From Escherichia phage vB_EcoS_AKFV33, in sequence record NC_017969.1: 64,000 nucleotides of DNA. One strand, given 5' to 3'. This document shows positions 3,450 through 38,996 of this stretch, in pieces. Made by a program: the position numbers and the translations under genes. The notes beneath the pieces were generated by a model. It searched no databases. It was not told where the DNA came from and was given only the letters and a program-made list of their open reading frames with translations. The stretch's first letter is position 1; the number at the start of each line of letters is the position of its first letter.

Positions 3450-3647
3450 TTAATTTAAAGGCATAAGGCTAGAACTAACACCACAAGCAACGGCGGCAAT
3501 AAAACAAATCAGACCTAAACGTTTTGCTAATTTAGATTTACGTTTAAAATAATACGAATCTAAATCATTTTGAAAATAAGCGAACAATAACGAGGCCGCC
3601 ATAATAAATAAGCCTAGAATTAAAGATTCAGTAGGGAAGAAAACCAT
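3450..3647 (-). CDS. small membrane protein
   Basis: 65 aa ORF with hydrophobic segments; conserved leader motif upstream. Confidence 0.4.
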   Translation of the reverse strand: MVFFPTESLILGLFIMAASLLFAYFQNDLDSYYFKRKSKLAKRLGLICFIAAVACGVSSSLMPLN

Positions 3648-7594: not shown

Positions 7595-7807
7595 ATGATC
7601 CGCAACGTTTCTCTTGCACGTTCGAAAGGCTTTAAGCTGGTGGATGCTAACACGTTCGAGCGTCCAGATTGTAAAATCGAATATGTAGCACGTAATAAAA
7701 ATGCCTTTCGTGTTACCGAGAAAAAATTCGACAAGCGCGGCAACGTGATCGCTGAAACGGTTAAACACTTTGCCACCTTTTACGCTGCGTTTCGTGGGGT
7801 ACTATGA
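7595..7807 (+). CDS. hypothetical protein
   Basis: 70 aa ORF, SD AAAGGAG upstream. Confidence 0.45.
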   Translation: MIRNVSLARSKGFKLVDANTFERPDCKIEYVARNKNAFRVTEKKFDKRGNVIAETVKHFATFYAAFRGVL

Positions 7808-7947
7808 AAAGCGTTATTGTTATTATCCTTGCAATGGTTAGCGGTTTTACCGCCACCTTATTTAAAAATGACCCCATTTCGTTGGGGATCTTTATGCTTT
7901 TATCTGGCTATCTGATCGGGAGGCTAACAAATGATTCAGCAAATTAA
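7804..7947 (+). CDS. small membrane peptide (47 aa)
   Basis: ATGA start/stop overlap with upstream gene; hydrophobic product MKSVIVIILAMVSGF... Confidence 0.35.
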   Translation: MKSVIVIILAMVSGFTATLFKNDPISLGIFMLLSGYLIGRLTNDSAN

Positions 7948-29142: not shown

Positions 29143-29218
29143 TGGAGCGGCTAGAGGGAATCGAACCCTACTCGGCGAGGCTTGGAAGGCCTGCGACACA
29201 ACCCGTGTGCTTAACCGC
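29143..29218 (-). tRNA. tRNA-Gly (anticodon TCC)
   Basis: anticodon loop CTTCCAA; T-loop TTCGATT; CCA encoded. Confidence 0.7.
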
Positions 29219-29226
29219 TTATTGTT

Positions 29227-29302
29227 TGGCTGGAGAAGGAGGAATCGAACCTACCATTAACGGAGTCAAAGGCCGTTGTGCTAACCGTTACACTACTCTC
29301 CA
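29227..29302 (-). tRNA. tRNA-Gln (anticodon TTG)
   Basis: anticodon loop CTTTGAC; CCA encoded. Confidence 0.7.
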
Positions 29303-29308
29303 ATTATT

Positions 29309-29384
29309 TGGCTGGAGTGCCTGGGATCGAACCAGGAACCTTCGGAGTCAGAGGCCGACGATCTGCCAATTGATCTACACTCCA
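29309..29384 (-). tRNA. tRNA-Gln (anticodon CTG)
   Basis: tandem paralog of previous; anticodon loop CTCTGAC; CCA encoded. Confidence 0.7.
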
Positions 29385-29396
29385 ATAATTTTTATT

Positions 29397-29591
29397 CTAC
29401 GGAAAAATTGTTGTTGGCTCAGATTCTTCTAAACGTTTGCCTTCATGATCTACTCGAATAACTCCGCATCCTTCGCAAATCACAACTGCACCATAACCTT
29501 CTTTGACCTCAGCTTCTGTAATCAAACCAGAAAGATCACCAGTATCTCTGCCCCACATATCAATGGAGCATTGTTTGCAGAAATCAGCCAT
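29397..29591 (-). CDS. small zinc-ribbon-like protein
   Basis: 64 aa; CKQC...CEGC. Confidence 0.4.
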   Translation of the reverse strand: MADFCKQCSIDMWGRDTGDLSGLITEAEVKEGYGAVVICEGCGVIRVDHEGKRLEESEPTTIFP

Positions 29592-29616
29592 ATTTTATTT
29601 CCTATTTAAGTTAATT

Positions 29617-29693
29617 TGGGGTGGCTAGTGGAATTCGAATCCACATAGGCCTGATTCACAATCAGGATCATTAACCAATTATGATATAGCCAC
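29617..29693 (-). tRNA. tRNA-His (anticodon GTG)
   Basis: anticodon stem CCTGA/TCAGG, loop TTGTGAA; C73 discriminator; no G at position -1 encoded. Confidence 0.75.
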
Positions 29694-29922
29694 AATTGAA
29701 AACTCGCAGGGTTAGCGAAACCTTCCTCAATTAGCATGTTCTAGAATACTAATCAAGTTATCTCCTATTGCACGCAGCTCAAGACGAGTACGAATTTTCA
29801 ATTGTGGCGGCTCTCAGAAACTCTTCTACTCTAGCCTTAGCAGCTTACTCCCGAACGCATGTCGGGGAAGTCTTACTAAGAGCTTCGAATAGCACCGTTA
29901 CACTTTGAGCCATAGATGTATC

Positions 29923-30054
29923 AAGAAGTAGAAGGACTTGAACCTTCACGAGATAGACCATTTATCTCAGCCGCTTTATGAGGTATGTTGCGGGGAGTGG
30001 ATGTTCCCCATAAACCTTTTAGGCAGCCCCGTCTACCAATTCCGGCATACTTCA
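29923..30054 (-). ncRNA. atypical tRNA-like element (T-arm-like hairpin with extra hairpins)
   Basis: T-arm GAAGG-ACTTGAA-CCTTC, 6/7 complementary acceptor-like ends ~130 nt apart; no canonical anticodon loop found. Confidence 0.25.
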
Positions 30055-30059
30055 AGATT

Positions 30060-30154
30060 TGGAGGTAGGTAAGGGGATCGAACCCTTACACCGTATCACT
30101 ACGATCAACCGATTTCAAGTCGGAGTCCAGCGCCAGCCATTGGATTGACCTACC
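30060..30154 (-). tRNA. tRNA-Ser (anticodon TGA), class II
   Basis: long variable arm; anticodon loop CTTGAAA; CCA encoded. Confidence 0.7.
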
Positions 30155-30165
30155 ATTAAGTTATT

Positions 30166-30256
30166 TGGCGGAAGAGGAGAGATTTGAACTCTCAAGCCGT
30201 TTTACCAGTCAGCCACTTTCCAAGTGGTTTTCGTCGCCAATTCGATTTGCTCTTCC
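30166..30256 (-). tRNA. tRNA-Ser (anticodon GGA), class II
   Basis: perfect 7-bp acceptor stem; anticodon loop TTGGAAA; long variable arm. Confidence 0.65.
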
Positions 30257-30292
30257 AATAATAAGATGATGCCTCTATCACACCAGGCAGTT

Positions 30293-30367
30293 ACGCCTCG
30301 CTGGGATTCGAACCCATTAAAACAGCTCAACCGAGATAGTAGGTTTAATTTACTCTGACCATCAAAT
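30293..30367 (-). ncRNA. tRNA-like fragment (T-arm and 3' acceptor half without matching 5' half)
   Basis: TTCGAAT T-loop with flanking stem, but no complementary acceptor 5' strand. Confidence 0.25.
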
Positions 30368-30368
30368 T

Positions 30369-30445
30369 TGGTGCGTGACAAGGGATTCGAACCCTCAAAA
30401 CCCGACTTCTAAGGACGGTATGTATGCCCATTCCATCAATCACGC
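30369..30445 (-). tRNA. tRNA with anticodon TAG (Leu-type anticodon, class-I architecture)
   Basis: anticodon loop CTTAGAA; short variable loop; A73 discriminator; CCA encoded. Confidence 0.6.
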
Positions 30446-30450
30446 GTATT

Positions 30451-30529
30451 TGGTGGAGAATAACGGAATCGAACCGTTCTGATGTCCTCGGTGCAAGCGA
30501 GGTGTCCACTCCATGCAGACCCATTCCCC
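30451..30529 (-). tRNA. tRNA-Ala (anticodon TGC)
   Basis: anticodon stem CCTCG/CGAGG, loop CTTGCAC; G3:U70 identity pair present. Confidence 0.75.
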
Positions 30530-30767
30530 AAATTCTTTAGTTTACTAAGGCTATTAGCTCGGCGTAACTACAGCACCTTCGCTTAGAGCGGAAGGAACTA
30601 CGTCATCTCGCAAACCCAATACACTATTCAGTTGCCGCTGAATCTAGTGGACCAATCTAGAACTTCTCCCGAATCGTAGGGATCGTGCTTTTTGGCAGCC
30701 AGTCCTAGGTCGAGCTAATACCTTAGTGAACTATGATGAGGATTTCTCCTCATCAATTTATATAAAT

Positions 30768-30797
30768 ATTATAACAAGAAATTAAGCATCAAGCAAG
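30768..30797 (-). promoter_or_regulatory. sigma70-type early promoter facing a non-coding island
   Basis: conserved promoter motif; only a 12-codon ORF, then ~200 nt of GC-richer non-coding sequence downstream. Confidence 0.45.
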
Positions 30798-31142
30798 TAC
30801 ATTTTTGCAGACTTCTTGTATTTCCTTAACATCGCTAATGAAAAGGTAATCGGAACTTCCAGAGTGCATACTAGACATTAGTACACCACTATCTGGTGCA
30901 TCTTCTTTTAACGTAATGCCTAACCAGAACTCGGCAAAACTAGGTGTTACCTCACCTTGACTTGCCTTGAATACATCGGCTTCTGTGATCTCCTGACCAG
31001 TAGAAAGTCCCATGTACGGTACGTTCAGATCAATATCTTTGTAGAACTCAGCTAAATCTTGTTCGAAGTCCCAACCTTTAGAGATAGCGAACTCCATTGT
31101 CACATGACCGAAATAACCTTGAATCTTGCTTGATAATTGCAT
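30789..31142 (-). CDS. hypothetical protein
   Basis: track ORF starts at a TTG (31148); first ATG at 31142. Confidence 0.45.
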   Translation of the reverse strand: MQLSSKIQGYFGHVTMEFAISKGWDFEQDLAEFYKDIDLNVPYMGLSTGQEITEADVFKASQGEVTPSFAEFWLGITLKEDAPDSGVLMSSMHSGSSDYLFISDVKEIQEVCKNVLA

Positions 31143-31167
31143 TTGCAATTCCTTATTTTGAGTTAAT

Positions 31168-31241
31168 TGGTACCCGGTGATAGAATCGAACTATCTCAAC
31201 CGCCATGTAAAGACGGGGTTCTCCCATTAAACTAACCGAGC
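31168..31241 (-). tRNA. tRNA-Val (anticodon TAC)
   Basis: anticodon loop TTTACAT; CCA encoded. Confidence 0.65.
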
Positions 31242-31245
31242 AAAT

Positions 31246-31324
31246 TGGTAGATCGCCTGGGACTTGAACCCAGAACCTTCCGATTAAAAGTCGGATGCTA
31301 CTAAACCTATTGAGCTAGCGATCT
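31246..31324 (-). tRNA. tRNA-Lys (anticodon TTT)
   Basis: perfect anticodon stem TCCGA/TCGGA, loop CTTTTAA; CCA encoded. Confidence 0.75.
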
Positions 31325-31513
31325 ATTAGTAACCATTGTATACTTCTTTAATAGAGTGAACTTTCAAGTAAGGGTGATTAGTACTAAACTCTGCCATTAC
31401 TTCATCCCAATTTCTACCATAATGAGCAAGTAAGGATTTTGATGTATTCTTACCTAAGCGTTTGTCACTTACTACTAATCGAAATACTTTCATTTCGAAA
31501 TCCTCTATTAAAA

Positions 31514-31591
31514 TGGAAGCGGGTGCAGGAATCGAACCTACCTCTTTCTAGCTTATGAGACTAGCGATCTCTACCAGAGATCTAACCCGCA
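31514..31591 (-). tRNA. tRNA-Met (anticodon CAT)
   Basis: anticodon loop CTCATAA; position 1:72 mismatch; CCA encoded. Confidence 0.7.
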
Positions 31592-31597
31592 ATTGTT

Positions 31598-31675
31598 TGG
31601 TCTCCGTGGGAGGATTTGAACCCCCGACCCTATCGCCCCAAACGAAACGCTCTGGCCAAACTGAGCTACACGGAG
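31598..31675 (-). tRNA. tRNA-Pro (anticodon TGG)
   Basis: perfect acceptor stem; anticodon loop TTTGGGG; CCA encoded. Confidence 0.75.
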
Positions 31676-31679
31676 AATA

Positions 31680-31838
31680 TTATTTCTTCAACCACAACAA
31701 AGATAAGCCAAGCATACTAAAGCCACTAACTAATCCGATACATTTTTCTTCTATAGTAAAAGTATCTAGATTAAATGCTGTTATAGCTATTGGCATACAC
31801 CATAATGCCATAAAAACTTGAGCTATCTTGTGTTTCAT
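31680..31838 (-). CDS. small membrane protein (52 aa)
   Basis: unlisted ORF MKHKIAQVFMALWCMPIAITAF... directly downstream of early promoter. Confidence 0.3.
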   Translation of the reverse strand: MKHKIAQVFMALWCMPIAITAFNLDTFTIEEKCIGLVSGFSMLGLSLLWLKK

Positions 31839-31870
31839 TTTGCTTTCCTTCTCTTCACTTTATAAAATAT

Positions 31871-31900
31871 ATTATACAGATAGTTAAGCAGAATAGCAAA
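31871..31900 (-). promoter_or_regulatory. sigma70-type early promoter
   Basis: ATTATACAG..AGCAAATGAATTTTT motif. Confidence 0.5.
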
Positions 31901-32048
31901 TGAATTTTTAATAAATTTACTTATTGTGTAGGCCACCTGGAGGCTACCAACCCCACGGCTGACAAAGAAGTTTGCGAGACCTCTCTTAAATGCCAGAATA
32001 GACCCGCCGATCTATCGGAACCTACATAATAAGTAAACTTTATAGTGT

Positions 32049-32169
32049 CATTCTAGACAGGACTCGAACCTGTTATCACTTGTGCGGACTTACGAGAACC
32101 ATTCTTTCACTCGAATCGAACGAGCTTCTGCCCTCGCCAAGCTGGTTTCCCCACCAACCACGCTAGAAT
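32049..32169 (-). ncRNA. long tRNA-like RNA (~121 nt): perfect 7-bp acceptor-like stem, D-arm, T-arm and an extra internal TTCGATT hairpin
   Basis: ATTCTAG/CTAGAAT ends, T-arm ACAGG-TTCGAGT-CCTGT; no canonical anticodon loop. Confidence 0.35.
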
Positions 32170-32291
32170 GTTTGATTGTTTTCAGTGCAAGAGTCCGAGT
32201 CTTGGACACGACCGCTTTGCAAGTACATAGGCAGCTTATCATGAGTCAGCACTTCCGAATTGCTAGCTCCGTGTTCTGCACTGAAATTTTA

Positions 32292-32639
32292 TTAGTTTAA
32301 CCTTAAAGTATTATCTACTTCACCATTAATTGTTCGGCATTCCTCTGGAATTGCTGGAGTAGCCTTGTATTCCCACCACTCAGCTCCATCATATTCCCCA
32401 CGTTCTAGCCAGGTTCCATCGGCAAACCATACATTACCATAAAGTAGTTGTCCACCATAACCAGAATCATACTCAAAGTCTAGGTTATTAAGAAAATCCC
32501 CAATATCTTCTTCTGTATACCCCAGAGGTAATACCCAAACTTTTTTGTCCCCATAATACCCGAATTCTATTTTAATACACTTAACTTCAGAATTAGTATT
32601 TTTTAAGGCAAGTAACAACTCTTCTTTAGCATTACGCAT
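32292..32639 (-). CDS. hypothetical protein
   Basis: 115 aa ORF. Confidence 0.45.
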   Translation of the reverse strand: MRNAKEELLLALKNTNSEVKCIKIEFGYYGDKKVWVLPLGYTEEDIGDFLNNLDFEYDSGYGGQLLYGNVWFADGTWLERGEYDGAEWWEYKATPAIPEECRTINGEVDNTLRLN

Positions 32640-32665
32640 AGTATATTTCTCGTGCTAGTTTAGTT

Positions 32666-32741
32666 TGGTACACCCACTAGGACTTGAACCTAGAACCCTC
32701 CGCTTAAGAGGCGGTAGCTCTAACCATTGAGCTATGGATGT
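32666..32741 (-). tRNA. tRNA-Lys (anticodon CTT)
   Basis: anticodon loop CTCTTAA; CCA encoded. Confidence 0.65.
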
Positions 32742-32918
32742 ATTAAATTACTTTTTCCAGTTCATCAGCTATGGCTTTGATTTTTTCAAAGTTTACATCA
32801 CTAATAATGATACCTTCTAGTGACAGAGATATTCTAGCATTTTTCGTAGCAGATTCTTTTATCTGCTCTATCTCTTCTGGAGTAAACTCTCTACGTTCCA
32901 TAGCTAACCTACCTTATT

Positions 32919-32995
32919 TGGCGCGACCGATGGGATTTGAACCCACATTCCCTCCCGTGACAGGGGAGTACCATTACCAAGCCAGCCCCGGTCGC
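32919..32995 (-). tRNA. tRNA-Asp (anticodon GTC)
   Basis: perfect acceptor and anticodon stems; loop CTGTCAC; position cross-checked against ORF-track frame. Confidence 0.8.
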
Positions 32996-33004
32996 ATAAT
33001 TCAT

Positions 33005-33190
33005 TTACTCAGCTTTGAGTTTTTCAATAGCTGCATTAAGTTCTTTAAGAAACTCTTTTCGTACATTAAGACGGTTGAGACTTACTAGTATATCATGTTT
33101 AAGTTCTTCGATGTATTTCTTCTCAACTTCAATATTGTTGATAGTGCTATCACGATGAACTTCTAGCTGCGCAATTACATTCTTGGACAT
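33005..33190 (-). CDS. hypothetical coiled-coil protein
   Basis: 61 aa ORF. Confidence 0.4.
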   Translation of the reverse strand: MSKNVIAQLEVHRDSTINNIEVEKKYIEELKHDILVSLNRLNVRKEFLKELNAAIEKLKAE

Positions 33191-33292
33191 GCTTGTTTCC
33201 TCAGTTATTAATGAAAATGGTATCTGTGGCTGAATTCGATGTCAGCAATGATAGCTGGTTGGCTACCGGTTTACTTAACTCTACACAGAATT

Positions 33293-33375
33293 TGGCGGGC
33301 CGTGTAGGATTCGAACCTACGTTGTCTTTCGACATGGATTAACAGTCCACCGCCAAACCGCTTGGCTAACGACCC
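33293..33375 (-). tRNA. tRNA-Asn (anticodon GTT) with extended variable region
   Basis: D-stem GCCA/TGGC, anticodon loop CTGTTAA; 83 nt. Confidence 0.6.
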
Positions 33376-33381
33376 TGAATT

Positions 33382-33456
33382 TGGAGCACCCTGCTGGAAT
33401 TGAACCAACCTAGACGATTTTGCAGACCGTCACCTAAGCCACTCGGACAAGGATGC
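33382..33456 (-). tRNA. tRNA-Cys (anticodon GCA)
   Basis: anticodon loop CTGCAAA; CCA encoded. Confidence 0.65.
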
Positions 33457-33458
33457 AA

Positions 33459-33647
33459 TTATTCTTTATCTTCCGGCCATGAAAAGTGGATTAGATTTGC
33501 TGGCCCAAGAGTCCTGCAATAATATCCATCACCATGATCATAACCACATGTTCCACATTCACACATCTTAAATTCACCAAACTTAGTGAATAAGATTTCT
33601 GTGTCACAACAGTCGAACTTAACTAATTTAGCTTTTGGCTTCTTCAT
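33459..33647 (-). CDS. Cys-rich small protein
   Basis: 62 aa; CCDTE..CECGTCGYDHGDGYYC. Confidence 0.4.
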   Translation of the reverse strand: MKKPKAKLVKFDCCDTEILFTKFGEFKMCECGTCGYDHGDGYYCRTLGPANLIHFSWPEDKE

Positions 33648-33886
33648 TTAACACGCTCCGGTAGATCTTCGAGGTTATATTCCGTTGCTACACCAGCAGC
33701 ATCTAATAGTAAACCCATATGTTTAAGGATTTTAGTGATAGATTCACCTTCTGCTTCTTCTACAAAAGAACGTAGATGAACAAAGTCAATACCCCCATCC
33801 ATACCAGAGAAAATGTTTAGTAAGCGGAGCATTACCAGCTTACGTTCATTCAATTCTTGTTCTGTCATGTTGCTTCTCCAGTTCAA
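33644..33886 (-). CDS. hypothetical protein
   Basis: 80 aa ORF; early promoter upstream. Confidence 0.4.
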   Translation of the reverse strand: MNWRSNMTEQELNERKLVMLRLLNIFSGMDGGIDFVHLRSFVEEAEGESITKILKHMGLLLDAAGVATEYNLEDLPERVK

Positions 33887-33918
33887 TTTATGTAATTATT
33901 ATACAGAACTTTTGGAAA

Positions 33919-34206
33919 CTAAGCAACTACATTTTTTAAGAATTTGATACCTTTCTTTTTCTTCTTATATTTCCACGTTAATGGATTCTGTCGATTGTGA
34001 ACGCTTGAGATCTTTGTCTCGTCAAAGTTCTTCAATATCATGTAATCACAGGATAATTGTTCTAATGGAATGTGATTACCGTCAAAAGCATATACATAAG
34101 GCTGTTGACTAGCACGATAATGATAGACTTTGTTAATTCTACGTTTCAGCGACTTATCCGCGCAGTAAATAAAGAAGTTTTCAGGATGCATCAGCAGCTC
34201 CTTCAA
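33919..34206 (-). CDS. hypothetical protein
   Basis: 95 aa ORF (TTG start in track). Confidence 0.4.
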   Translation of the reverse strand: MKELLMHPENFFIYCADKSLKRRINKVYHYRASQQPYVYAFDGNHIPLEQLSCDYMILKNFDETKISSVHNRQNPLTWKYKKKKKGIKFLKNVVA

Positions 34207-34208
34207 TT

Positions 34209-34284
34209 TGGTGCACCCTGTTCGTATCGAACGAACCTCTCAAGCTCTTCAGGCAAGCGCTAATCCATCTCAGCTAAAGGTGCA
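34209..34284 (-). tRNA. tRNA-Phe (anticodon GAA), tentative
   Basis: anticodon loop CTGAAGA with weak stem; T-stem GTTCG/CGAAC. Confidence 0.5.
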
Positions 34285-34289
34285 AATTT

Positions 34290-34366
34290 TGGCAAACCTA
34301 CTAGGACTCGAACCTAGACCGTACGGTTTTGGAGACCGACATGCTGTCCAGTAACACTCTAGGAAT
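34290..34366 (-). tRNA. tRNA-Trp (anticodon CCA)
   Basis: anticodon loop CTCCAAA; two mismatches in acceptor stem. Confidence 0.7.
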
Positions 34367-34374
34367 GCAGAAAT

Positions 34375-34451
34375 TGGCGTCCTGTGCGGGGATCGAACCC
34401 GCAAATCCTACCTTGAAAGGGTAGTGACTTTACCAGTTTGTCTAACAGGGC
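34375..34451 (-). tRNA. tRNA-Glu (anticodon TTC)
   Basis: perfect anticodon stem CTACC/GGTAG, loop CTTTCAA. Confidence 0.75.
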
Positions 34452-34458
34452 TTAAATT

Positions 34459-34549
34459 TGGTGTTGGATGATGGAGTCGAACCACCCGAGACCCTTCCGA
34501 GTCGGCAGATTTACAGTCTGCTTCGCTACCTCTACGATACTAATCCAAC
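34459..34549 (-). tRNA. tRNA-Tyr (anticodon GTA), class II
   Basis: perfect acceptor and anticodon stems (GCAGA/TCTGC), loop CTGTAAA, long variable arm. Confidence 0.8.
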
Positions 34550-34677
34550 ATATTTAAAAATACTAAAATACTAGTTTAAACACTTTTAAATATGTTTCCA
34601 AATTAGATAACTATTATACCAAGTTTTAAGGCACTGAGCAAGTCAAATTTTAAAGAACTTGCTCAGTGCTGTATTAG

Positions 34678-34953
34678 TTAGTCGAACTTAGGAGTGACAG
34701 CTAAGGAGAATGGAAGTTCGAAAACTTCTTCACCCTCATCACTAACAGTAATTACACGGCCTTTAAGTTCAGACATTGAAATATCAATATCAGCTTTTGC
34801 ATCTGGAGCCATTCCAGCTTCAACACATTTAGCTTTAACTTCCGGCAGAAGTTCTACATCGTAGAAATAAAGCCATTCAATCTCACCTTCCCAGCCTTCC
34901 CAGGATTTACAGATTGCACTTTCAATACCAGTTGCTATAACACGATTTTGCAT
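34678..34953 (-). CDS. hypothetical protein
   Basis: 91 aa ORF. Confidence 0.45.
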   Translation of the reverse strand: MQNRVIATGIESAICKSWEGWEGEIEWLYFYDVELLPEVKAKCVEAGMAPDAKADIDISMSELKGRVITVSDEGEEVFELPFSLAVTPKFD

Positions 34954-35043
34954 TAGTTAACTCCTTCATCAATTTATATAACTATTATATCAGAAATTTA
35001 AAGCAAAAGGCAAGTACATTTTTAAAAATTCTATTTGGAGGAG

Positions 35044-35250
35044 CTAAACTCCAGATTCTTCAGCCAAGTCTAGACTAATAAGAGATATAGCCATAATTGC
35101 TGCTGTGTGCTCTTTTTCTCCAGTCTCTTTAGCTAGAGTTATAATATCAAGAATTTGCTTATGAAAGTCTGCAACCTCTTGAGTCATACCTGCTTCAGCA
35201 ATCATGCCTTTAAGCATGAAACGTTGTGCGGTAATTTCAGGATTAGCCAT
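35044..35250 (-). CDS. hypothetical protein
   Basis: 68 aa ORF. Confidence 0.4.
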   Translation of the reverse strand: MANPEITAQRFMLKGMIAEAGMTQEVADFHKQILDIITLAKETGEKEHTAAIMAISLISLDLAEESGV

Positions 35251-35425
35251 GTTGTTTCTCCAGTTTCATCTTTAATAGTCTACAAATAAAATCAATGTCT
35301 TCATCCGTGCCTAAATCTCTATCTTCAAGAGTTGCCTTGAAGTTTTTAGTCAATTCCATGAGGATAACTTCTCTAGAACGACGTGTTGGCGGAGGTGGAG
35401 GTCTATACATCTTATTTCCTTAATT

Positions 35426-35502
35426 TGGTAGGGGTGGTGGGATTCGAACCCACAAAACCTGAATTTTAAGTCCAGTACCTATGCCAATTCGATTACACCC
35501 CC
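35426..35502 (-). tRNA. tRNA with anticodon TAA (Leu-type anticodon, class-I architecture)
   Basis: anticodon stem CTGGA/TTCAG, loop CTTAAAA; A73; CCA encoded. Confidence 0.6.
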
Positions 35503-35603
35503 GTGTAATCAGTTTATTAGTTGATACATATTATAGCCTAGTGAAAATCCTACTACTAGTCCCACAAACCAACCAATATAATAATCTTTTAGTTTCACAG
35601 ATA

Positions 35604-35789
35604 TTACCCTCTTTCAATATCTAGAGAAATACCACAGTTAGGATTAATACCTGTACCATTGCAATTTGGGCAAACCCAGATATTGCAAAAAGTATCTCCT
35701 GCTTCTGCATCAGAACTTTCACCAATTCCCCTACACTCAGGGCAGGCACATTCTTCTAGCTCTTGCTTGAGTTCTTGAAACTTGGACAT
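35604..35789 (-). CDS. DnaJ-type zinc-finger small protein
   Basis: 61 aa; CPECRGIG and CPNCNGTG repeats. Confidence 0.45.
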   Translation of the reverse strand: MSKFQELKQELEECACPECRGIGESSDAEAGDTFCNIWVCPNCNGTGINPNCGISLDIERG

Positions 35790-35798
35790 ATAGTCTCC

Positions 35799-35987
35799 TT
35801 AGTCAATTACTTTTGAGGCCTCAAGGTAGTCGATATAGTGTACGTTTTCTACCGTAATCATATAATCTGCCACTTTATCCATAGCTTGGGCTTCAGAGGT
35901 AGCTCTGGCTAACCTATATCCTTTTTTATATTCATCAGGGTATTCTCTATCTTGAATAAACACAACATAAACTATGTATAATTCCAC
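35799..35987 (-). CDS. small hypothetical protein
   Basis: track ORF 35799-36134 reads through a tRNA gene; trimmed to GTG with SD AGGGGA. Confidence 0.35.
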   Translation of the reverse strand: MELYIVYVVFIQDREYPDEYKKGYRLARATSEAQAMDKVADYMITVENVHYIDYLEASKVID

Positions 35988-36007
35988 TTGTAATCCCCTA
36001 ATTAAGT

Positions 36008-36085
36008 TGGTGGCTCCCCGAGGATTCGAACCTACGTACCTTCCAGTTATGAGCTGGGTGCTCATACCATATGAGCTTGAGAACC
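36008..36085 (-). tRNA. tRNA-Met or Ile2 (anticodon CAT)
   Basis: D-stem GCTC/GAGC, anticodon loop CTCATAA; position cross-checked against ORF-track frame. Confidence 0.65.
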
Positions 36086-36091
36086 AGAATT

Positions 36092-36180
36092 TGGCGGAAG
36101 AAGTGGGAATCGAACCCACAAGGCTATATTTCAAACCGACAGATTAGCAATCTGCTGCAATACCGTTATGCTATTCTTCC
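36092..36180 (-). tRNA. tRNA-Ser (anticodon GCT), class II
   Basis: perfect 7-bp acceptor stem; anticodon loop TTGCTAA; long variable arm. Confidence 0.75.
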
Positions 36181-36201
36181 GAATTTATAAGATATATTAT
36201 A

Positions 36202-36720
36202 TTAGAAATTTAGCTTCATAGCAAGAAAATTTTTCAAGTTTTCGGTAGACATCTCATCCACATCTACAGGAGAAACAAAGCCGTTTAATTTTCTAGCAAA
36301 TTTTTCACCCGCAGGATCGTTATTCCCGACAGCTACCAATTTAAAAGGTAATAATTTCAGTTGCTTTAATAACGCTTTTCCTGGAGAAGAACCCAACATT
36401 GCTAGGGCTGGATAACCAGCGTTATGTAACGCAACTGCCTTAAATACAGATTCAGCGATCAATACTACTTTTTCATCTCCATTGAGAGTTTCTAATCCCC
36501 ATACACACTGGGTAGTAGAATAGGTAAAATATTTAGCTTCAAAGGGACACTTACCATGACCTTTTGGAGCAGAAGGATTATAAGTTTGATAGCCTCTCAA
36601 CATCCCAGAGAAATCATACAACGGGACTGTTAGCCATCCTTCCGGACTTAACCAGCAATGATATTTATCTGCATCAAATCCTCTAGATAGAAGATGTTGT
36701 GTTAATTCATCAACACCCAT
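36202..36720 (-). CDS. small TOPRIM-like domain protein
   Basis: 172 aa; VVLIAESVFKA..YPALAMLGSS..LVAVGNNDPAGEKFARKL resembles the TOPRIM acidic motif arrangement; call is low-certainty. Confidence 0.5.
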   Translation of the reverse strand: MGVDELTQHLLSRGFDADKYHCWLSPEGWLTVPLYDFSGMLRGYQTYNPSAPKGHGKCPFEAKYFTYSTTQCVWGLETLNGDEKVVLIAESVFKAVALHNAGYPALAMLGSSPGKALLKQLKLLPFKLVAVGNNDPAGEKFARKLNGFVSPVDVDEMSTENLKNFLAMKLNF

Positions 36721-36816
36721 GTTTAATCTCCTAGTTAGTTTTATAATTACATTATATAGAAAAGCCCTGCGCTCTCCAGGAAACGCAGGGCTTACTTTAG
36801 ATGTTACATGCGGGTA

Positions 36817-37764
36817 TTATTTATTACGCATATCCATGATCATTTGGCCATCATAACCAGTACCAACTACCGTCTGTGGTACACCACCTTGATACTTCTG
36901 AGCACGGATCATTTCAACTTCCAGTTGCTTCCAGCGAATCATCTCAGGAGTAATGGTACGTTGCAATGCGGCGTTAGCTTCAGCTTCTTTCTTAGCTGCG
37001 TACAGTTTAGCATCTGCGTCACGTTCATTAGCAATAGCTTGGTTGTTGCGAGCTTCACGATCTGCTTCTGCTTGTTTAACTTTTTGCTGTGCTTCCTGTT
37101 CAACACGAGCTAATTCAGCTTTAGCAGCATTAACCTGTTCTTCACGAACTTTGGTATTCTGTACCTGTTCCATGATTACCGGTGGCAAAGTAATATCCTG
37201 AAGGAACACCTGCTTAACTGTGTAACCATATGGGCGTGCATACTCTTCAACTTCCTGTTGAATTGCAGTTTGCAATTGAGCCTGAATTTTAGCATCAAAT
37301 AAATCTTGTGCTTTAGGTACAGACTTACCAAACTCACGAATAGTAGACAGTAATTTTTCAGTTACATATTTGTCTAACGCTTGATCCTGAGTACCTGCAT
37401 TAATACGGTTAATCGGTGCTTTAGAACCATCAAACTGCAACATAACAGTCAGGTCAACAGTGGATTTAAACTTATCCTGACTAGGAACCTGAAGTTTATC
37501 TAATTTTAGAGCAATATCTTTAGTACTAAAAGTATCAAAAGAAGCAAAAGGATTTACAATATGGAAACCAGGTAATACTGGATTAGGATCAACTTTACCC
37601 AAGAAAGTCTGGGTCTTAACAGTACCGTCTTGAACAACGGTATAGGAGTTAAGAGCTAGAACTAAACCTGCTAAACCAACTACAGCACCAATCCCCCAAC
37701 GTTTAATAGTACGAATTACTTTCTGCTCAGAAGTCAGTTCTTTCATATTTTTAGTATTAAACAT
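36817..37764 (-). CDS. SPFH/band-7 family membrane protein (prohibitin/HflC-like)
   Basis: 315 aa; N-terminal TM segment, SPFH-like core, C-terminal Ala/Glu/Gln-rich coiled coil. Confidence 0.65.
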   Translation of the reverse strand: MFNTKNMKELTSEQKVIRTIKRWGIGAVVGLAGLVLALNSYTVVQDGTVKTQTFLGKVDPNPVLPGFHIVNPFASFDTFSTKDIALKLDKLQVPSQDKFKSTVDLTVMLQFDGSKAPINRINAGTQDQALDKYVTEKLLSTIREFGKSVPKAQDLFDAKIQAQLQTAIQQEVEEYARPYGYTVKQVFLQDITLPPVIMEQVQNTKVREEQVNAAKAELARVEQEAQQKVKQAEADREARNNQAIANERDADAKLYAAKKEAEANAALQRTITPEMIRWKQLEVEMIRAQKYQGGVPQTVVGTGYDGQMIMDMRNK

Positions 37765-37798
37765 ATATTTCCTTTGTTTTAGTTACAGTTAATAAAAT

Positions 37799-37873
37799 TG
37801 GCCGAGGTGACAGGATTCGAACCTGCATAAAGGAATTTAGAAGACTCCTGCCTCTCCCTTAGACTACACCCCG
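37799..37873 (-). tRNA. tRNA-Arg (anticodon TCT)
   Basis: anticodon loop CTTCTAA; CCA encoded. Confidence 0.7.
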
Positions 37874-38375
37874 TTTAAGTATTTTTAAGAACTCTCGTAA
37901 AAACTCTTAAAAATACAGACGATACCGGGAGAGTCATAAGTCTCACTCATTAAGTATTTCAAGACAAAATACAGTAACGTCTATTATTTTCCAGTTTAAG
38001 TCAGGGTGACTTAGTGGTTATGTCCTGCGGTATATTGAGGACTCGGTTAGGCTTGGGGTCATGACTTCCCGCCTTTTGCTGCTACTCAACAGGAATTATC
38101 GCGAATTACCTGTGCTATTGTGCACCATTAGTGACATCTCTCATGTCAGCATTTCCCACTTTGTGGATAGCTTGAAAAACTACTCCGATGTGGAGAAAGA
38201 ACTTCACTATCCTAGAATACCTTCTAAAGTTCTTCTTTAGCCTGGACATAGTTAAACCGTAATAAAACTATTCAGCAGACTGGTTGGTTAGTCTGGAACC
38301 AACTACCGCGTGGTTTAGGCAGTGCGCAACTAACCTCGGAAGCTTTTACGTTAAAAGCATCAGTTATCCAGTTCT

Positions 38376-38447
38376 TACCGACCGTAGGATTCGAACCTAC
38401 ATCTTCCACCAGTTACGGCTTGATAATACCAATTATACTAGGACGGC
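38376..38447 (-). ncRNA. tRNA-like element with canonical T-arm but no resolvable anticodon arm
   Basis: T-arm GTAGG-TTCGAAT-CCTAC; acceptor pairing 6/7. Confidence 0.3.
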
Positions 38448-38525
38448 AGTGTTACTACATAAGTGATTTCCACACCCCACTATTTATAAATTAGATGCCT
38501 AATTATCATCTAATTTATGAATATA

Positions 38526-38554
38526 TTATATAGAATTTATAAGCATTTAGCAAA
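38526..38554 (-). promoter_or_regulatory. sigma70-type early promoter reading into the tRNA cluster
   Basis: ATTATATAG..AGCAAATGAATTTTT motif. Confidence 0.5.
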
Positions 38555-38561
38555 TGAATTT

Positions 38562-38996
38562 TTAGAAAAATTCGCTAGCAATCAAAGCAGTTGTTTTACC
38601 TTCATAACGCCCTGGAAACTCTGCCTTAATGGTTTTCATTAAGAGAGCTTTGGTAATGCCGGGGTTTAGCTTAACCAGTTCTGCAAAGTATTTACGAATT
38701 TCAGTTTCAGTCAGTTGACTTGGCTGATACTCTTGCAGCATGGAATAAAGCAGTTGCTCATAGTCTACATCAGTAGGAACTTTCGTACCAACTTTAATAG
38801 CGCGCTGCTTTGCATTTTCTAGAGCCTTAATCTGAGCTTTCAGATAGGCTACGAACTCGGTTCGAGTAACAATATCTTTATCAATACGTTGCAGGTCGCC
38901 AATCATGGTCTGAAGATTAAGCGCCCGCTCTTTATCACCGTGAGTACGTGCTAGACTAAGCAGTCCACGAAGGGTCATTAGGATATTTTCACCCAT
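38562..38996 (-). CDS. hypothetical protein
   Basis: 144 aa ORF. Confidence 0.45.
   Translation of the reverse strand: MGENILMTLRGLLSLARTHGDKERALNLQTMIGDLQRIDKDIVTRTEFVAYLKAQIKALENAKQRAIKVGTKVPTDVDYEQLLYSMLQEYQPSQLTETEIRKYFAELVKLNPGITKALLMKTIKAEFPGRYEGKTTALIASEFF

What the first reader, a model, noticed from the sequence alone, without database searches (positions are those of the whole stretch)
29923..32169. Long tRNA-like RNAs with acceptor and T-arms but no canonical anticodon arm
Region 32049-32169 (~121 nt) has a perfect 7-bp acceptor-like stem (ATTCTAG/CTAGAAT), a D-arm-like hairpin, a canonical T-arm and an extra internal TTCGATT hairpin. Region 29923-30054 has a T-arm plus extra hairpins, and 30293-30367 is a T-arm with 3' half only. 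These could be stable tRNA-like ncRNAs, tRNAs carrying insertions, or decayed tRNA genes.
Basis: seen in the sequence. Interest (0 to 1): 0.6.

Follow-up and report, generated by a model that had tools for sequence, protein, structure and literature searches.

The report
Phage T5 tRNA-like stable RNAs
These are this phage's copies of T5 RNA1 and RNA2, two tRNA-shaped RNAs annotated in phage T5 as stable RNAs of unknown function, in which a conserved folded module replaces the anticodon loop; the third site is a separate, unannotated tRNA-derived structured RNA.

Summary
The window is a T5-like phage (Demerecviridae) with its tRNA cluster on the minus strand.

- **32049-32169** is the orthologue of T5 rna2. 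**29923-30054** is the orthologue of T5 rna1. RefSeq annotates both as "tRNA-like stable RNA with unknown functions", so they are already known.
- **Structure.** Across 24-27 distinct homologues, both keep every tRNA helix, including a covarying 5-bp anticodon stem. The 7-nt anticodon loop is replaced by a conserved 55-nt module in RNA2 and a 48-nt module in RNA1. RNA2's module contains a second genuine T-arm. RNA1's module is a hairpin with an invariant GGAACAUCCACUCC tip.
- **Function.** They cannot decode. Covariation and invariant loops argue against decay. The most likely role is a non-decoding tRNA mimic, matured like a tRNA, that presents its module to a tRNA-binding factor. That last step is inferred.
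- **30293-30367** is not a half-tRNA. It is part of an unannotated, conserved element of about 100 nt: a T-arm stacked on a capped 7-bp acceptor-like hairpin, closed by a covarying 8-bp helix.
- **Bonus.** RNAs with two T-arms inside one acceptor stem recur in tRNA arrays of many unrelated uncultivated phages.

The parts
32046..32170 (-). RNA2 orthologue (125 nt by the T5 annotation): a tRNA-shaped RNA with a 55-nt module in place of the anticodon loop
   Evidence: 96% identical over 125 nt to T5 rna2. T5 and BF23 annotate it as a tRNA-like (stable) RNA of unknown function. Covariation. Global Rfam tRNA alignment with a 55-nt insert.
32163..32169 (-). RNA2 acceptor 5' strand ATTCTAG, pairing with 32050-32056 CTAGAAT. 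C32170 (position -1) pairs with G32049 (position 73), giving 8 bp.
   Evidence: All 7 pairs show changes on both sides, for example AGACAAU/AUUGUCU and UACGGGG/UCCCGUA. The -1:73 pair is C-G or U-A in 22 of 24 sequences.
32143..32160 (-). RNA2 D-arm TGGTT-GGTGGGGA-AACCA
   Evidence: 4 of 5 pairs covary. The GGGGA part of the loop (G20, G21, G23, A24, with G22 nearly so) is invariant.
32138..32142 (-). RNA2 anticodon-stem 5' strand GCTTG, pairing with 32078-32082 CAAGT
   Evidence: 99.2% paired and 4 of 5 pairs covary. Variants are GUCUG/CAGAU, GCCUG/CAGGU, GCCAU/GUGGU and GCUGU/GCAGU.
32083..32137 (-). RNA2 55-nt module replacing the anticodon loop. It contains helix GGGC/GTCC, the second T-arm, GAA-TGG-TTC, and the block CTCGTAAnTCCGCA, invariant except at position n.
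   Evidence: Invariant columns. Coordinates verified.
32109..32125 (-). Internal second T-arm GCTCG-TTCGATT-CGAGT inside the RNA2 module
   Evidence: Three fully paired variants occur: GCUCG/CGAGU, UACGG/CCGUA and GCUUG/CAAGU.
32057..32073 (-). RNA2 terminal T-arm ACAGG-TTCGAGT-CCTGT, abutting the acceptor 3' strand
29912..30056 (-). RNA1 orthologue (144 nt in the T5 annotation; the window match spans 145 nt): a class-II (long variable arm) tRNA-shaped RNA with a 48-nt hairpin module in place of the anticodon loop
   Evidence: 85% identical over 144 nt to T5 rna1. Annotation. Covariation. Rfam tRNA 27.4 bits with a 45-nt insert and a 19-nt variable arm.
30048..30053 (-). RNA1 acceptor 5' strand GAAGTA, pairing with 29925-29930 TACTTC. 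The helix continues through a UU/UU internal loop to 10-12 bp. No CCA is encoded.
   Evidence: 5 of 6 pairs covary. The extended helix was read from the alignments.
30029..30045 (-). RNA1 D-arm CCG-GAATTGGTAGA-CGG
   Evidence: Conserved and 100% paired. The likeness to the E. coli tRNA-Leu D-loop rests on my memory and was not tested.
30023..30027 (-). RNA1 anticodon-stem 5' strand GCTGC, pairing with 29970-29974 GCGGC
   Evidence: 3 of 5 pairs covary: ACUGC/GCGGU, GCUUC/GAGGC and ACUAC/GUGGU.
29975..30022 (-). RNA1 48-nt module: an A-rich internal loop, a 3-bp helix AGG/CCT and an apical hairpin (29992-30009) with the invariant tip GGAACATCCACTCC
   Evidence: The helices covary (AGG/CCU with GGG/CCC and GAG/CUC; three apical-stem pairs). 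The loop is invariant even in Pectobacterium phage DU_PP_V.
29950..29968 (-). RNA1 long variable arm GAGATA-AATGGTC-TATCTC
   Evidence: 2 of 6 pairs covary and the loop is invariant.
29931..29947 (-). RNA1 T-arm GAAGG-TTCAAGT-CCTTC
   Evidence: 100% paired.
30267..30364 (-). Third element: an unannotated conserved structured RNA between tRNA-Leu(UAG) and tRNA-Ser(GGA). In T5 the HNH endonuclease gene hegC occupies this position.
   Evidence: 100% identical to the unannotated gap in the BF23 record. Found in 245 phage records. Absent from T5.
30335..30343 (-). Closing-helix 5' strand CCT-A-CTATC, pairing with 30272-30279 GATAG-AGG
   Evidence: 8 of 8 pairs form in all 13 distinct sequences. Compensatory variants are CUACU/AGUAG, CGGCU/AGUCG, CUGCU/AGUAG and CCC/GGG.
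30302..30316 (-). T-arm TGGG-TTCGAAT-CCCA of the third element
   Evidence: 100% paired and 2 of 4 pairs covary (CAGG/CCUG, CGGG/CCCG).
30282..30301 (-). Capped 7-bp acceptor-like hairpin GCGAGGC-GTAACT-GCCTGGT, directly abutting the T-arm
   Evidence: 6 of 7 pairs form, with a constant G.G mismatch. One pair covaries (A-U with G-C) and three vary on one side only.

Best explanation
The two long elements are this phage's orthologues of T5 RNA2 and RNA1.

They are transcribed with the early tRNA operons. Because they keep the acceptor, D, anticodon-stem and T helices and the D-loop GG and T-loop residues, they should fold into a tRNA-like L-shape. They should then be matured and stabilised by the host tRNA machinery: RNase P, 3' trimming, and T-loop modification. 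This step is inferred; T5 and BF23 annotations call them stable RNAs.

The 7-nt anticodon loop is replaced by a conserved folded module. In RNA2 the module holds a second T-arm plus a GG-containing segment that could form a second tRNA 'elbow'. In RNA1 it is a hairpin with an invariant 8-nt loop. Neither RNA can therefore decode.

The most likely mode of action is a non-decoding tRNA mimic or natural 'tRNA scaffold'. The scaffold would display the module to a tRNA-binding partner and bind or titrate it. The partner could be a host tRNA-targeting nuclease or toxin, or a tRNA-processing or modifying factor. The function is accessory and dispensable in laboratory hosts. The partner is unknown and this step is inference.

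The third site is a separate tRNA-derived structured RNA: a T-arm coaxial with a capped acceptor-like hairpin, closed by an 8-bp helix.
For: Identity: 96% and 85% identity to T5 rna2 and rna1, with the same synteny.

Structure: covariation is strong in all helices. The Rfam tRNA model aligns end to end, with the insert exactly in the anticodon loop.

Constraint on the modules: CUCGUAAnUCCGCA (invariant except n), GGG, and the T1 loop in RNA2; GGAACAUCCACUCC and AAAUGGUCUA in RNA1.

Distribution: RNA2 matches 465 phage records and RNA1 491. They span Tequintavirus, Epseptimavirus, Sugarlandvirus, Erwinia phage KEY, Pantoea phage AAS21, Pectobacterium phages My1 and DU_PP_V, and Enterobacter phage KKP_3711. 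A full RNA2 homologue (108 bits) also sits in a 164-kb contig whose flanks match no isolate phage.

3' end: RNA2 carries N-CCA in three lineages.

Dispensability: viable T5 deletion mutants remove RNA1 (deletion 29191-32442) or RNA2 (deletion 30661-38625) (PMC11464382).

Context: the T5 tRNA region is an anti-defence locus. tRNA-Lys counters PARIS (PMC11464382) and tRNA-Tyr counters retron Eco7 (cited in PMC10644984).

Recurrence: two-T-arm tRNA-like RNAs recur in tRNA arrays of unrelated phages.
Against: No binding partner, phenotype or expression data could be examined here. 'Stable RNA' rests on GenBank notes, and I could not read the 1980s primary papers.

In the PARIS work, rescue was mapped to a fragment carrying four tRNAs and to tRNA-Lys, not to RNA1 or RNA2.

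The 3' CCA of RNA2 is ACA or ACU in the T5-like phages and My1.

RNA1 has an extended closed terminal helix and no CCA, so canonical tRNA end-processing is not assured.

No complementary target of the RNA1 loop stands out in the window. No similarity to E. coli genomes was found.
Confidence: 0.55

Rival explanations
1. Processing or punctuation elements. The tRNA-like folds exist only so that RNase P and other tRNA-processing enzymes cut the polycistronic transcript and release or stabilise neighbouring RNAs (RNAI, RNAIII, RNAIV, tRNAs). The capped acceptor and T-arm of the third element would be an internal RNase P site.
For: In the T5 annotation RNA1 abuts RNAI directly, and RNA2 lies 18 nt upstream of RNAIV. 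The third element sits between two tRNAs. M. smegmatis YrlA, which has a capped 7-bp acceptor-like stem, is cut by RNase P (PMC4201824).
Against: RNA1 and RNA2 are conserved far more widely than RNAI, RNAIII or RNAIV, which gave no match in Sugarlandvirus and no or only partial matches in phiR2-01 and AAS21. The strongest constraint falls on the insert loops, which a cleavage signal would not need.
Confidence: 0.15
2. Chargeable tRNA-like RNAs. RNA2 at least is aminoacylated and delivers an amino acid, or binds EF-Tu or the ribosome, outside normal decoding, in the manner of tmRNA.
For: A 7-8-bp acceptor stem directly stacked on a T-arm. N-CCA is encoded in AAS21/KEY, most Sugarlandvirus sequences, and KKP_3711/UTK0010. 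Several synthetases (Ala, Ser and Leu, from textbook knowledge) do not read the anticodon.
Against: The CCA is replaced by ACA or ACU in the T5-like phages and My1. The discriminator base varies (G, A or U). There is no G3.U70. RNA1 has no CCA and a closed extended helix. ARAGORN finds no tmRNA.
Confidence: 0.1
3. Decaying tRNA pseudogenes with junk insertions, carried along in a recombination-prone, dispensable region.
For: The region is deletable (PMC11464382). It is riddled with HNH homing endonuclease genes. The 5' edge of the RNA2 insert reads N-C-(G/U)-A-G-G, which resembles the remnant of a Leu (NAG) anticodon loop.
Against: 19 of 31 and 15 of 33 helix pairs carry compensatory changes, with 96-99% pairing. 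The insert loops are invariant across subfamilies. A homologue is present in an otherwise unrelated 164-kb contig.
Confidence: 0.07
4. Intron-containing tRNA precursors that are spliced to working tRNAs.
For: The inserts sit exactly in the anticodon loop.
Against: No U33 and no conserved anticodon flank the insert. RNA1 reads CUAAA, CGAAU or CUAAC, and RNA2 has an invariant C at position 33. There is no group I intron hit and the inserts are far too short. From general knowledge, enterobacteria lack the bulge-helix-bulge splicing endonuclease. T5 annotates the full-length 125- and 144-nt forms as the stable species.
Confidence: 0.05
5. For the third site only: a DNA-level element, either a homing-endonuclease target or a repair scar, rather than an RNA.
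For: T5 carries the HNH endonuclease gene hegC exactly here. T4 SegB recognises the DNA of a tRNA T-arm motif (PMC2330249).
Against: Compensatory changes preserve an 8-bp long-range helix, the T-stem and one pair of the capped hairpin in four lineages. That is selection at the RNA level.
Confidence: 0.08

Closest known systems
Phage T5 RNA2 (rna2, T5s06) and RNA1 (rna1, T5s03); same features in the BF23 and Salmonella phage 5 tRNA-region records
   Same: Orthologous. They are 96% and 85% identical over the full annotated lengths, in the same order within the tRNA cluster, and on the same strand as the tRNAs.
   Different: Only allelic differences. This phage lacks ORF T5.063 between tRNA-Ser1 and RNA1, and it has the gap element where T5 has hegC. 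The records give no structure or function.
Canonical tRNA (Rfam RF00005)
   Same: Acceptor, D, anticodon-stem and T helices, T-loop UUCRANU, D-loop GG, and a location inside a tRNA operon. The model aligns end to end.
   Different: Scores fall below the gathering threshold. A 45-55-nt structured module replaces the anticodon loop. There is no U33 or anticodon. No CCA is encoded in this window, whereas the neighbouring tRNAs I read (Ala, Leu, both Ser) encode it.
Phage T4 species 1 and 2 stable RNAs (rnaC, rnaD)
   Same: Stable RNAs of about 120-140 nt at the end of a phage tRNA cluster. Species 1 has a T-arm and acceptor-like pairing. That their function is unknown is my recollection.
   Different: No detectable sequence homology to RNA1 or RNA2, and the architecture differs.
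Bacterial Y RNA YrlA tRNA-like domain (Chen et al. 2014, PMC4201824)
   Same: A non-decoding tRNA mimic. The third element shares the order V region, T-arm, capped acceptor stem-loop, all inside a closing stem.
   Different: No Rfam hit. No D stem-loop. No GNCGAA Ro60-binding motif. I did not look for a Ro60 gene in the window. RNA1 and RNA2 are not permuted.
Engineered 'tRNA scaffold' RNAs (an RNA of interest inserted in place of the anticodon loop; recalled from the literature, not checked here)
   Same: The same design: an intact tRNA body with a foreign structured module replacing the anticodon loop. In E. coli this design confers processing and stability.
   Different: These phage RNAs are natural and conserved, and their payload has no known ligand.
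Intron-containing tRNAs (bacterial group I introns; archaeal bulge-helix-bulge introns)
   Same: An insertion in the anticodon loop.
   Different: No intron family hit, a small insert, and no anticodon remnant. The full-length form is the annotated stable species.

Membership tests
T5 RNA2 (rna2) | Sequence homology to the annotated T5/BF23 rna2 over its full length | tested here: met
   96.0% over 125 of 125 nt, mapping to window 32046-32170. Search rows H53, H55 and H56 are annotated 'rna2: RNA2'.
T5 RNA2 (rna2) | Synteny: downstream of the T5.067 ORF, followed by RNAIV and promoter P13a | tested here: met
   T5.067 maps to 32292-32639, RNAIV to 31925-32027 and P13a to 31844-31918. A promoter-like site TTGCTA-17-TATAAT lies at 31899-31871.
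T5 RNA2 / RNA1 | Accumulates as a stable RNA of about 125 or 144 nt in infected cells | not testable with these tools
   Only the GenBank notes say 'stable RNA'.
T5 RNA1 (rna1) | Sequence homology to the annotated rna1, and synteny tRNA-Ser1 > RNA1 > RNAI > RNAIII > tRNA-His | tested here: met
   84.8% over 144 nt, mapping to 29912-30056. RNAI maps to 29805-29911, RNAIII to 29695-29800 and tRNA-His to 29617-29693.
Canonical tRNA (RF00005) | Score at or above the Rfam gathering threshold (29 bits) | tested here: not met
   RNA2 scores 20.6 bits and RNA1 27.4 bits. ARAGORN does not call either.
Canonical tRNA (RF00005) | A 7-nt anticodon loop with U33 and an anticodon | tested here: not met
   A 55-nt and a 48-nt module sit there instead. 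Position 33 is an invariant C in RNA2 and is U or G in RNA1.
Canonical tRNA (RF00005) | Acceptor, D and T helices supported by covariation | tested here: met
tRNA with group I intron | A match to the group I intron model inside the anticodon loop | tested here: not met
   No Intron_gpI hit in the window at E up to 10. The same tool did find one in locus L126.
YrlA / bacterial Y RNA | A match to an Rfam Y-RNA family | tested here: not met
   Nothing relevant at E up to 10 for 30240-30385, 29905-30062 or 32030-32185.
YrlA / bacterial Y RNA | The Ro60-binding motif GNCGAA(N)G on the 5' strand of the closing stem | tested here: not met
   By reading the sequences. The motif is as defined in PMC4201824.
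YrlA / bacterial Y RNA | Permuted order V - T-arm - capped acceptor - D-arm inside a closing stem | tested here: inconclusive
   The third element has the V region, T-arm, capped 7-bp hairpin and closing helix, but no D stem-loop. RNA1 and RNA2 are not permuted.
YrlA / bacterial Y RNA | An adjacent Ro60 (TROVE) gene | not tested
   I did not screen the window's proteins.
tmRNA | A tRNA-like domain plus a tag reading frame, detected by ARAGORN | tested here: not met
   ARAGORN reports no tmRNA.
T4 species 1/2 RNAs (rnaC/rnaD) | Sequence homology | tested here: not met
   nhmmer finds no hit at E up to 10. Only words of 7-10 nt are shared.

The most novel reading that the evidence does not exclude
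RNA2 is the first-described member of a widespread, undescribed class of phage 'two-elbow' tRNA mimics, with two T-arms inside one acceptor stem and always embedded in tRNA arrays. Together with RNA1, these RNAs would act as non-cleavable decoys or inhibitors of host tRNA-targeting immunity (anticodon nucleases, PARIS- or retron-type effectors) or of tRNA-processing factors. The third element would be a permuted, Y-RNA-like tRNA mimic of the same toolkit.
Probability: 0.2. Interest if true: 0.8.

Novelty: already known. Interest (0 to 1): 0.45.

Why it matters
T5 RNA1 and RNA2 are annotated in T5 as stable RNAs of unknown function, and T4 species 1 and 2 RNAs sit at the same kind of position in that phage's tRNA cluster. 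Phage tRNA clusters are now recognised as anti-defence loci.

This analysis turns the label 'tRNA-like RNA, function unknown' into a precise, testable model. The tRNA body is intact, the anticodon loop is replaced by a conserved module, and specific invariant loops are available to mutate.

It also adds an unannotated third structured RNA. And it shows that tRNA-like RNAs with two T-arms recur in tRNA arrays of many unrelated phages, so any function found in T5 is likely to generalise.

Practically, these loci are often mis-annotated as tRNAs or as hypothetical proteins.

Tried and rejected
- **Rfam searches.** The whole window at gathering threshold, 27-39 kb at E up to 10, and each element alone gave only sub-threshold tRNA matches. 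There was no intron, Y RNA, tmRNA or other family.
- **Host origin or mimicry.** BLASTN of RNA1 and RNA2 against 5,426 E. coli genomes found nothing at E up to 1.
- **Parent tRNA within the phage.** Aligning the insert-less bodies to all window tRNAs gave no clear closest relative.
- **Antisense target of the invariant RNA1 loop.** The complement GGAGTGGATGTT matches the window no more often than chance.
- **Alternative RNA2 pairings.** GCUU/AAGC, and the CGAG/CUCG pairing that the single-sequence fold predicts, were rejected. They have mismatches in most lineages, whereas GCUUG/CAAGU is 99% paired.
- **First model of the third element.** The hairpin CAGUG/CACUG was rejected in favour of the covarying long-range helix. 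The two are mutually exclusive.
- **Exact-motif scans of IMG/VR for RNA1 and RNA2.** These returned only T5-like genomes. Homology to T4 rnaC and rnaD was also absent.
- **Literature.** Full-text searches found no study of RNA1 or RNA2 function. I could not reach the 1980s primary papers.
- **Uncultivated two-T-arm family.** It has no BLASTN match among the 50,697 isolate phage records.


Full report
**What the window is.** A 2.6-kb stretch around the finding is 99.2-99.3% identical to Salmonella phages PK7 and PK8 and Escherichia phage IME178, and it matches 528 phage records. These are T5-like phages of the family Demerecviridae. ARAGORN finds 23 tRNA genes, all on the minus strand, between 27.8 and 37.9 kb. 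Rfam adds two more. All three sites of the finding lie inside this cluster and read sensibly only on the minus strand.

**Check of the observation.**
- At 32169-32049 (minus strand) there is a perfect 7-bp acceptor stem ATTCTAG/CTAGAAT, a D-arm, a terminal T-arm ACAGG-TTCGAGT-CCTGT and an internal hairpin GCTCG-TTCGATT-CGAGT.
- At 30054-29923 there is a 6-bp acceptor stem, a D-arm, a long variable arm and a T-arm.
- At 30316-30302 there is a T-arm.

On single sequences the folding energies are not unusual (z = -1.2, -2.0 and -0.1). The case therefore rests on comparison with relatives.

**Identity: already annotated in T5.** The RefSeq record of T5 (NC_005859) and the BF23 tRNA-region record carry misc_RNA features here:
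- rna2, 125 nt, and rna1, 144 nt. T5 notes both as 'tRNA-like stable RNA with unknown functions'; BF23 as 'tRNA-like RNA with unknown functions'.
- rna3, rnaI, rnaIII, rnaIV and rna2H, annotated as other RNAs of unknown function.

Mapping these features onto the window gives, all on the minus strand:

| T5 feature | Window coordinates | Identity |
|---|---|---|
| RNA2 | 32046-32170 | 96% |
| RNA1 | 29912-30056 | 85% |
| RNAI | 29805-29911 | 90% |
| RNAIII | 29695-29800 | 99% |
| RNA2H | 30549-30720 | 97% |
| RNAIV | 31925-32027 | 98% |
| RNA3 | 33218-33290 | 100% |

The first two items of the finding are therefore T5 RNA2 and RNA1. Full-text searches found no paper on their function.

**Distribution.** RNA2 matches 465 phage records and RNA1 matches 491. 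They include Tequintavirus, Epseptimavirus, Sugarlandvirus, Erwinia phage KEY, Pantoea phage AAS21, Pectobacterium phages My1 and DU_PP_V (Mccorquodalevirinae) and Enterobacter phage KKP_3711.

**Structure of RNA2 (24 distinct sequences, alignment A4).**
- The acceptor stem covaries at all 7 pairs.
- The D-stem covaries at 4 of 5 pairs.
- A helix GCUUG/CAAGU lies in the position of the anticodon stem. It is 99% paired and covaries at 4 of 5 pairs (GUCUG/CAGAU, GCCUG/CAGGU, GCCAU/GUGGU, GCUGU/GCAGU).
- A 4-nt variable loop and the terminal T-arm follow.
- Overall, 96% of cells are paired and 19 of 31 pairs carry changes on both sides. None of 500 shuffles reaches this, and slid controls give 32-44% paired.

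The anticodon stem encloses a 55-nt module instead of a 7-nt loop. The module contains:
- a short helix GGGC/GUCC;
- a second true T-arm, which occurs in three fully paired versions: GCUCG/CGAGU, UACGG/CCGUA and GCUUG/CAAGU;
- a segment GAA-UGG-UUC, whose AA and GG residues are invariant;
- the block CUCGUAAnUCCGCA, invariant except at position n.

The Rfam tRNA model independently produces the same layout. It aligns globally at 20.6 bits with 55 nt inserted in the anticodon loop.

Position -1 pairs with position 73 (C-G or U-A in 22 of 24 sequences). This makes an 8-bp stem that matches the 5' end annotated in T5.

The 3' tail is N-CCA in AAS21/KEY, most Sugarlandvirus sequences, and KKP_3711/UTK0010. 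It is G-ACA in the T5-like phages and in this window, and G-ACU in My1.

**Structure of RNA1 (27 distinct sequences, alignment A5).**
- Acceptor stem: 5 of 6 pairs covary.
- D-arm: CCG-GAAUUGGUAGA-CGG.
- Anticodon stem: GCUGC/GCGGC, with 3 of 5 pairs covarying.
- Variable arm: long, 6 bp with an invariant loop AAUGGUC.
- T-arm: 100% paired.
- Overall, 99.4% of cells are paired and 15 of 33 pairs show changes on both sides. None of 500 shuffles reaches the observed value on four of the five measures.

The anticodon loop is replaced by a 48-nt irregular hairpin. Its two helices covary, and its tip GGAACAUCCACUCC is invariant even in DU_PP_V. Rfam's tRNA model aligns it globally at 27.4 bits, with a 45-nt insert and a 19-nt variable arm.

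The terminal helix continues beyond the acceptor stem through a UU/UU internal loop to 10-12 bp. No CCA is encoded. This fits the annotated 144-nt length, which is longer than a tRNA-type product would be.

**What this excludes.**
- *Decay.* Compensatory substitutions in every helix, together with invariant insert loops, are not what decaying pseudogenes look like.
- *Splicing to working tRNAs.* Neither insert is flanked by U33 or by a conserved anticodon. No group I intron is detected. The full-length forms are the annotated stable species.
- *Host mimicry by sequence.* There is no similarity to E. coli genomes.
- *An obvious antisense target.* None was found for the RNA1 loop.
- *A clear parent tRNA in the phage.* None emerged.

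**Most likely mechanism.** What is shown: both are conserved RNAs with the tRNA helices and a conserved module where the anticodon loop should be. They lie in the early tRNA operons.

What is inferred: the RNAs fold into a tRNA-like L-shape. They are excised and stabilised by the tRNA maturation machinery, and because they cannot decode they act as tRNA mimics that present the module to a partner.

In RNA2, the second T-loop and the nearby invariant AA.GG could form a second T-loop/D-loop 'elbow'. That would suit an elbow-binding or tRNA-body-binding partner. A related motif, AAAUGGU, sits in the variable-arm loop of RNA1 and in RNA2 of several lineages.

The tRNA region of T5 is a documented counter-defence locus. 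T5 tRNA-Lys neutralises PARIS (PMC11464382) and T5 tRNA-Tyr counters retron Eco7 (cited in PMC10644984). Viable T5 deletion mutants lack RNA1 (deletion 29191-32442) or RNA2 (deletion 30661-38625) (PMC11464382). An accessory, host-dependent role such as a decoy for tRNA-targeting nucleases is therefore plausible but untested.

The rival explanations are processing punctuation, a chargeable tRNA-like RNA, pseudogenes and spliced precursors. They are weighed in their own section.

**The third site.** The stretch 30259-30368 is 100% identical to an unannotated gap between tRNA-Leu1 and tRNA-Ser2 in BF23. It is absent from T5, where the HNH endonuclease gene hegC sits. It occurs in 245 phage records, including Sugarlandvirus, KEY and DU_PP_V.

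It is not a tRNA 3' half. It has three structural parts:
- A long-range helix CCU-A-CUAUC (30343-30335) with GAUAG-AGG (30279-30272). It forms 8 of 8 pairs in all 13 distinct sequences, with compensatory variants in four lineages.
- The T-arm (30316-30302), which covaries at 2 of 4 pairs.
- A capped 7-bp hairpin GCGAGGC-GUAACU-GCCUGGU (30301-30282) directly abutting the T-arm. One of its pairs covaries and three vary on one side only.

A T-arm stacked on a capped, acceptor-length helix inside a closing stem is the topology described for the tRNA-like domain of bacterial Y RNA YrlA (PMC4201824). However, this element has no D stem-loop, no GNCGAA Ro60-binding motif and no Rfam match. I file it only as a tRNA-derived structured RNA. 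It could be an internal RNase P site or another mimic.

**A wider class, found while following up.** I scanned IMG/VR for two T-loop motifs 36-50 nt apart. Among the 115 hits outside the loci I already held:
- the first motif is flanked by a fully complementary 5-bp stem in 68 cases, against about 2 expected by chance;
- a perfect 7-bp acceptor helix encloses both T-arms in 40 cases, against about 6 expected.

In all 14 loci I checked, the RNA sits in a large tRNA array, and Rfam sees nothing there except tRNA and one group I intron. Several of these RNAs appear as 114-146-nt tRNA hits of 32-37 bits.

One coherent family of about 120 nt carries an invariant mini-hairpin AGUA-UGG-UACU just before the second T-arm. 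In 19 sequences, 92.7% of cells are paired and 20 of 26 pairs show changes on both sides. None of 500 shuffles reaches this. A representative of the family has no BLASTN match among 50,697 isolate phage records.

A covariance model of RNA2 finds full-length homologues in a 164-kb contig (108 bits), whose flanks match no isolate phage, and in a second contig (51 bits). RNA2 is thus one instance of a recurrent phage design.

T4 species 1 and 2 RNAs occupy the analogous position in that phage's tRNA cluster, but they show no sequence homology to RNA1 or RNA2.

**Verdict.**
- The interpretation 'stable tRNA-like ncRNAs' is correct and already annotated, so the finding itself is not new.
- Added here: a covariation-backed architecture, a corrected description of the third site as an unannotated structured RNA, and evidence that tRNA-like RNAs with two T-arms are widespread in phage tRNA arrays.
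- The function remains unknown. The decoy or mimic mechanism is inference.

Noticed in passing
IMG/VR loci L056-L170 and L172-L270 (examples: L079:8196-8319, L088:2267-2390, L126 near 7778-7819, L097 near 3472-3515): RNAs of about 95-150 nt with two T-arms enclosed by one 7-bp acceptor stem recur in tRNA arrays of many unrelated uncultivated phages. One family of about 120 nt, with an invariant AGUAUGGUAC mini-hairpin, shows strong covariation (92.7% paired, 20 of 26 pairs). A representative has no BLASTN match in isolate phages, and none of the 14 loci checked has an Rfam family other than tRNA (plus one group I intron).
   Followed up: partly
L067:3707-3830 and L154:1057-1179: Full-length RNA2 homologues (108 and 51 bits with the RNA2 covariance model) occur outside recognisable T5-like genomes. 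L067 comes from a 164-kb contig in which only the RNA2 segment matches any isolate phage.
   Followed up: partly
window 33218-33290 (-): An orthologue of T5 RNA3 ('putative tRNA-like RNA'), 100% identical to T5, sits next to tRNA-Asn. It folds with an acceptor-like stem, an anticodon-like hairpin and a T-arm-like hairpin with an 8-nt loop, has no D-arm, ends in ACCA, and has z = -3.0.
   Followed up: partly
window 29695-29911, 30549-30720, 31925-32027 (-): Orthologues of T5 RNAIII, RNAI, RNA2H and RNAIV, annotated in T5 as 'stable RNA with unknown functions'. They flank RNA1 and RNA2 but are much less widely conserved across genera than RNA1 and RNA2.
   Followed up: partly
window 32171-32291 (-): A 120-nt non-coding stretch between the T5.067-like ORF and RNA2 is 98-99% identical to T5 and BF23 and is unannotated there. 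It contains inverted repeats (cagtgcagaacac ... gtgtccaagactcggactcttgcactg).
   Followed up: no
window 30064-30154, 30166-30258, about 29143-29219, 36011-36085, 38376-38447 (-): ARAGORN misses several real tRNA genes. These are tRNA-Ser(UGA), tRNA-Ser(GGA) and a tRNA-Gly(UCC)-like gene, which Rfam scores as weak tRNA-Sec matches. Two more are found only by the Rfam tRNA model.
   Followed up: partly
L040:251-320 (Enterobacter phage KKP_3711); L003:6986-7132 (phiR2-01 g056); other records: Public records mis-annotate these RNAs. Part of RNA2 is called tRNA-Arg(ccg) in KKP_3711, and 'hypothetical protein' coding sequences are drawn over RNA1 or RNA2 in several genomes.
   Followed up: partly
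L046:136-260 (Klebsiella phage vB_Kpn_3): A chimeric RNA2. The acceptor stem and 5' D-arm are of the Sugarlandvirus type, while the core module is of the T5 type. This suggests recombination within the RNA gene that nonetheless preserves pairing.
   Followed up: no
window 29950-29968 and 32096-32104 (-); L171:1409-1672 (T4 rnaC/rnaD): A shared AAUGG / AUGGU(U/A) motif occurs in the RNA1 variable-arm loop, in the RNA2 module, in the uncultivated two-T-arm family (UAUGGUAC) and in T4 species 1 and 2 RNAs. It may be a D-loop-like partner for T-loops, or it may be coincidence.
   Followed up: partly
window 30369-30445 and 35426-35502 (-): Both tRNA-Leu genes called here, (UAG) and (UAA), are 77 nt long and have no long variable arm, which is unusual for bacterial-type tRNA-Leu. 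RNA1 does have a class-II body with a long variable arm.
   Followed up: no
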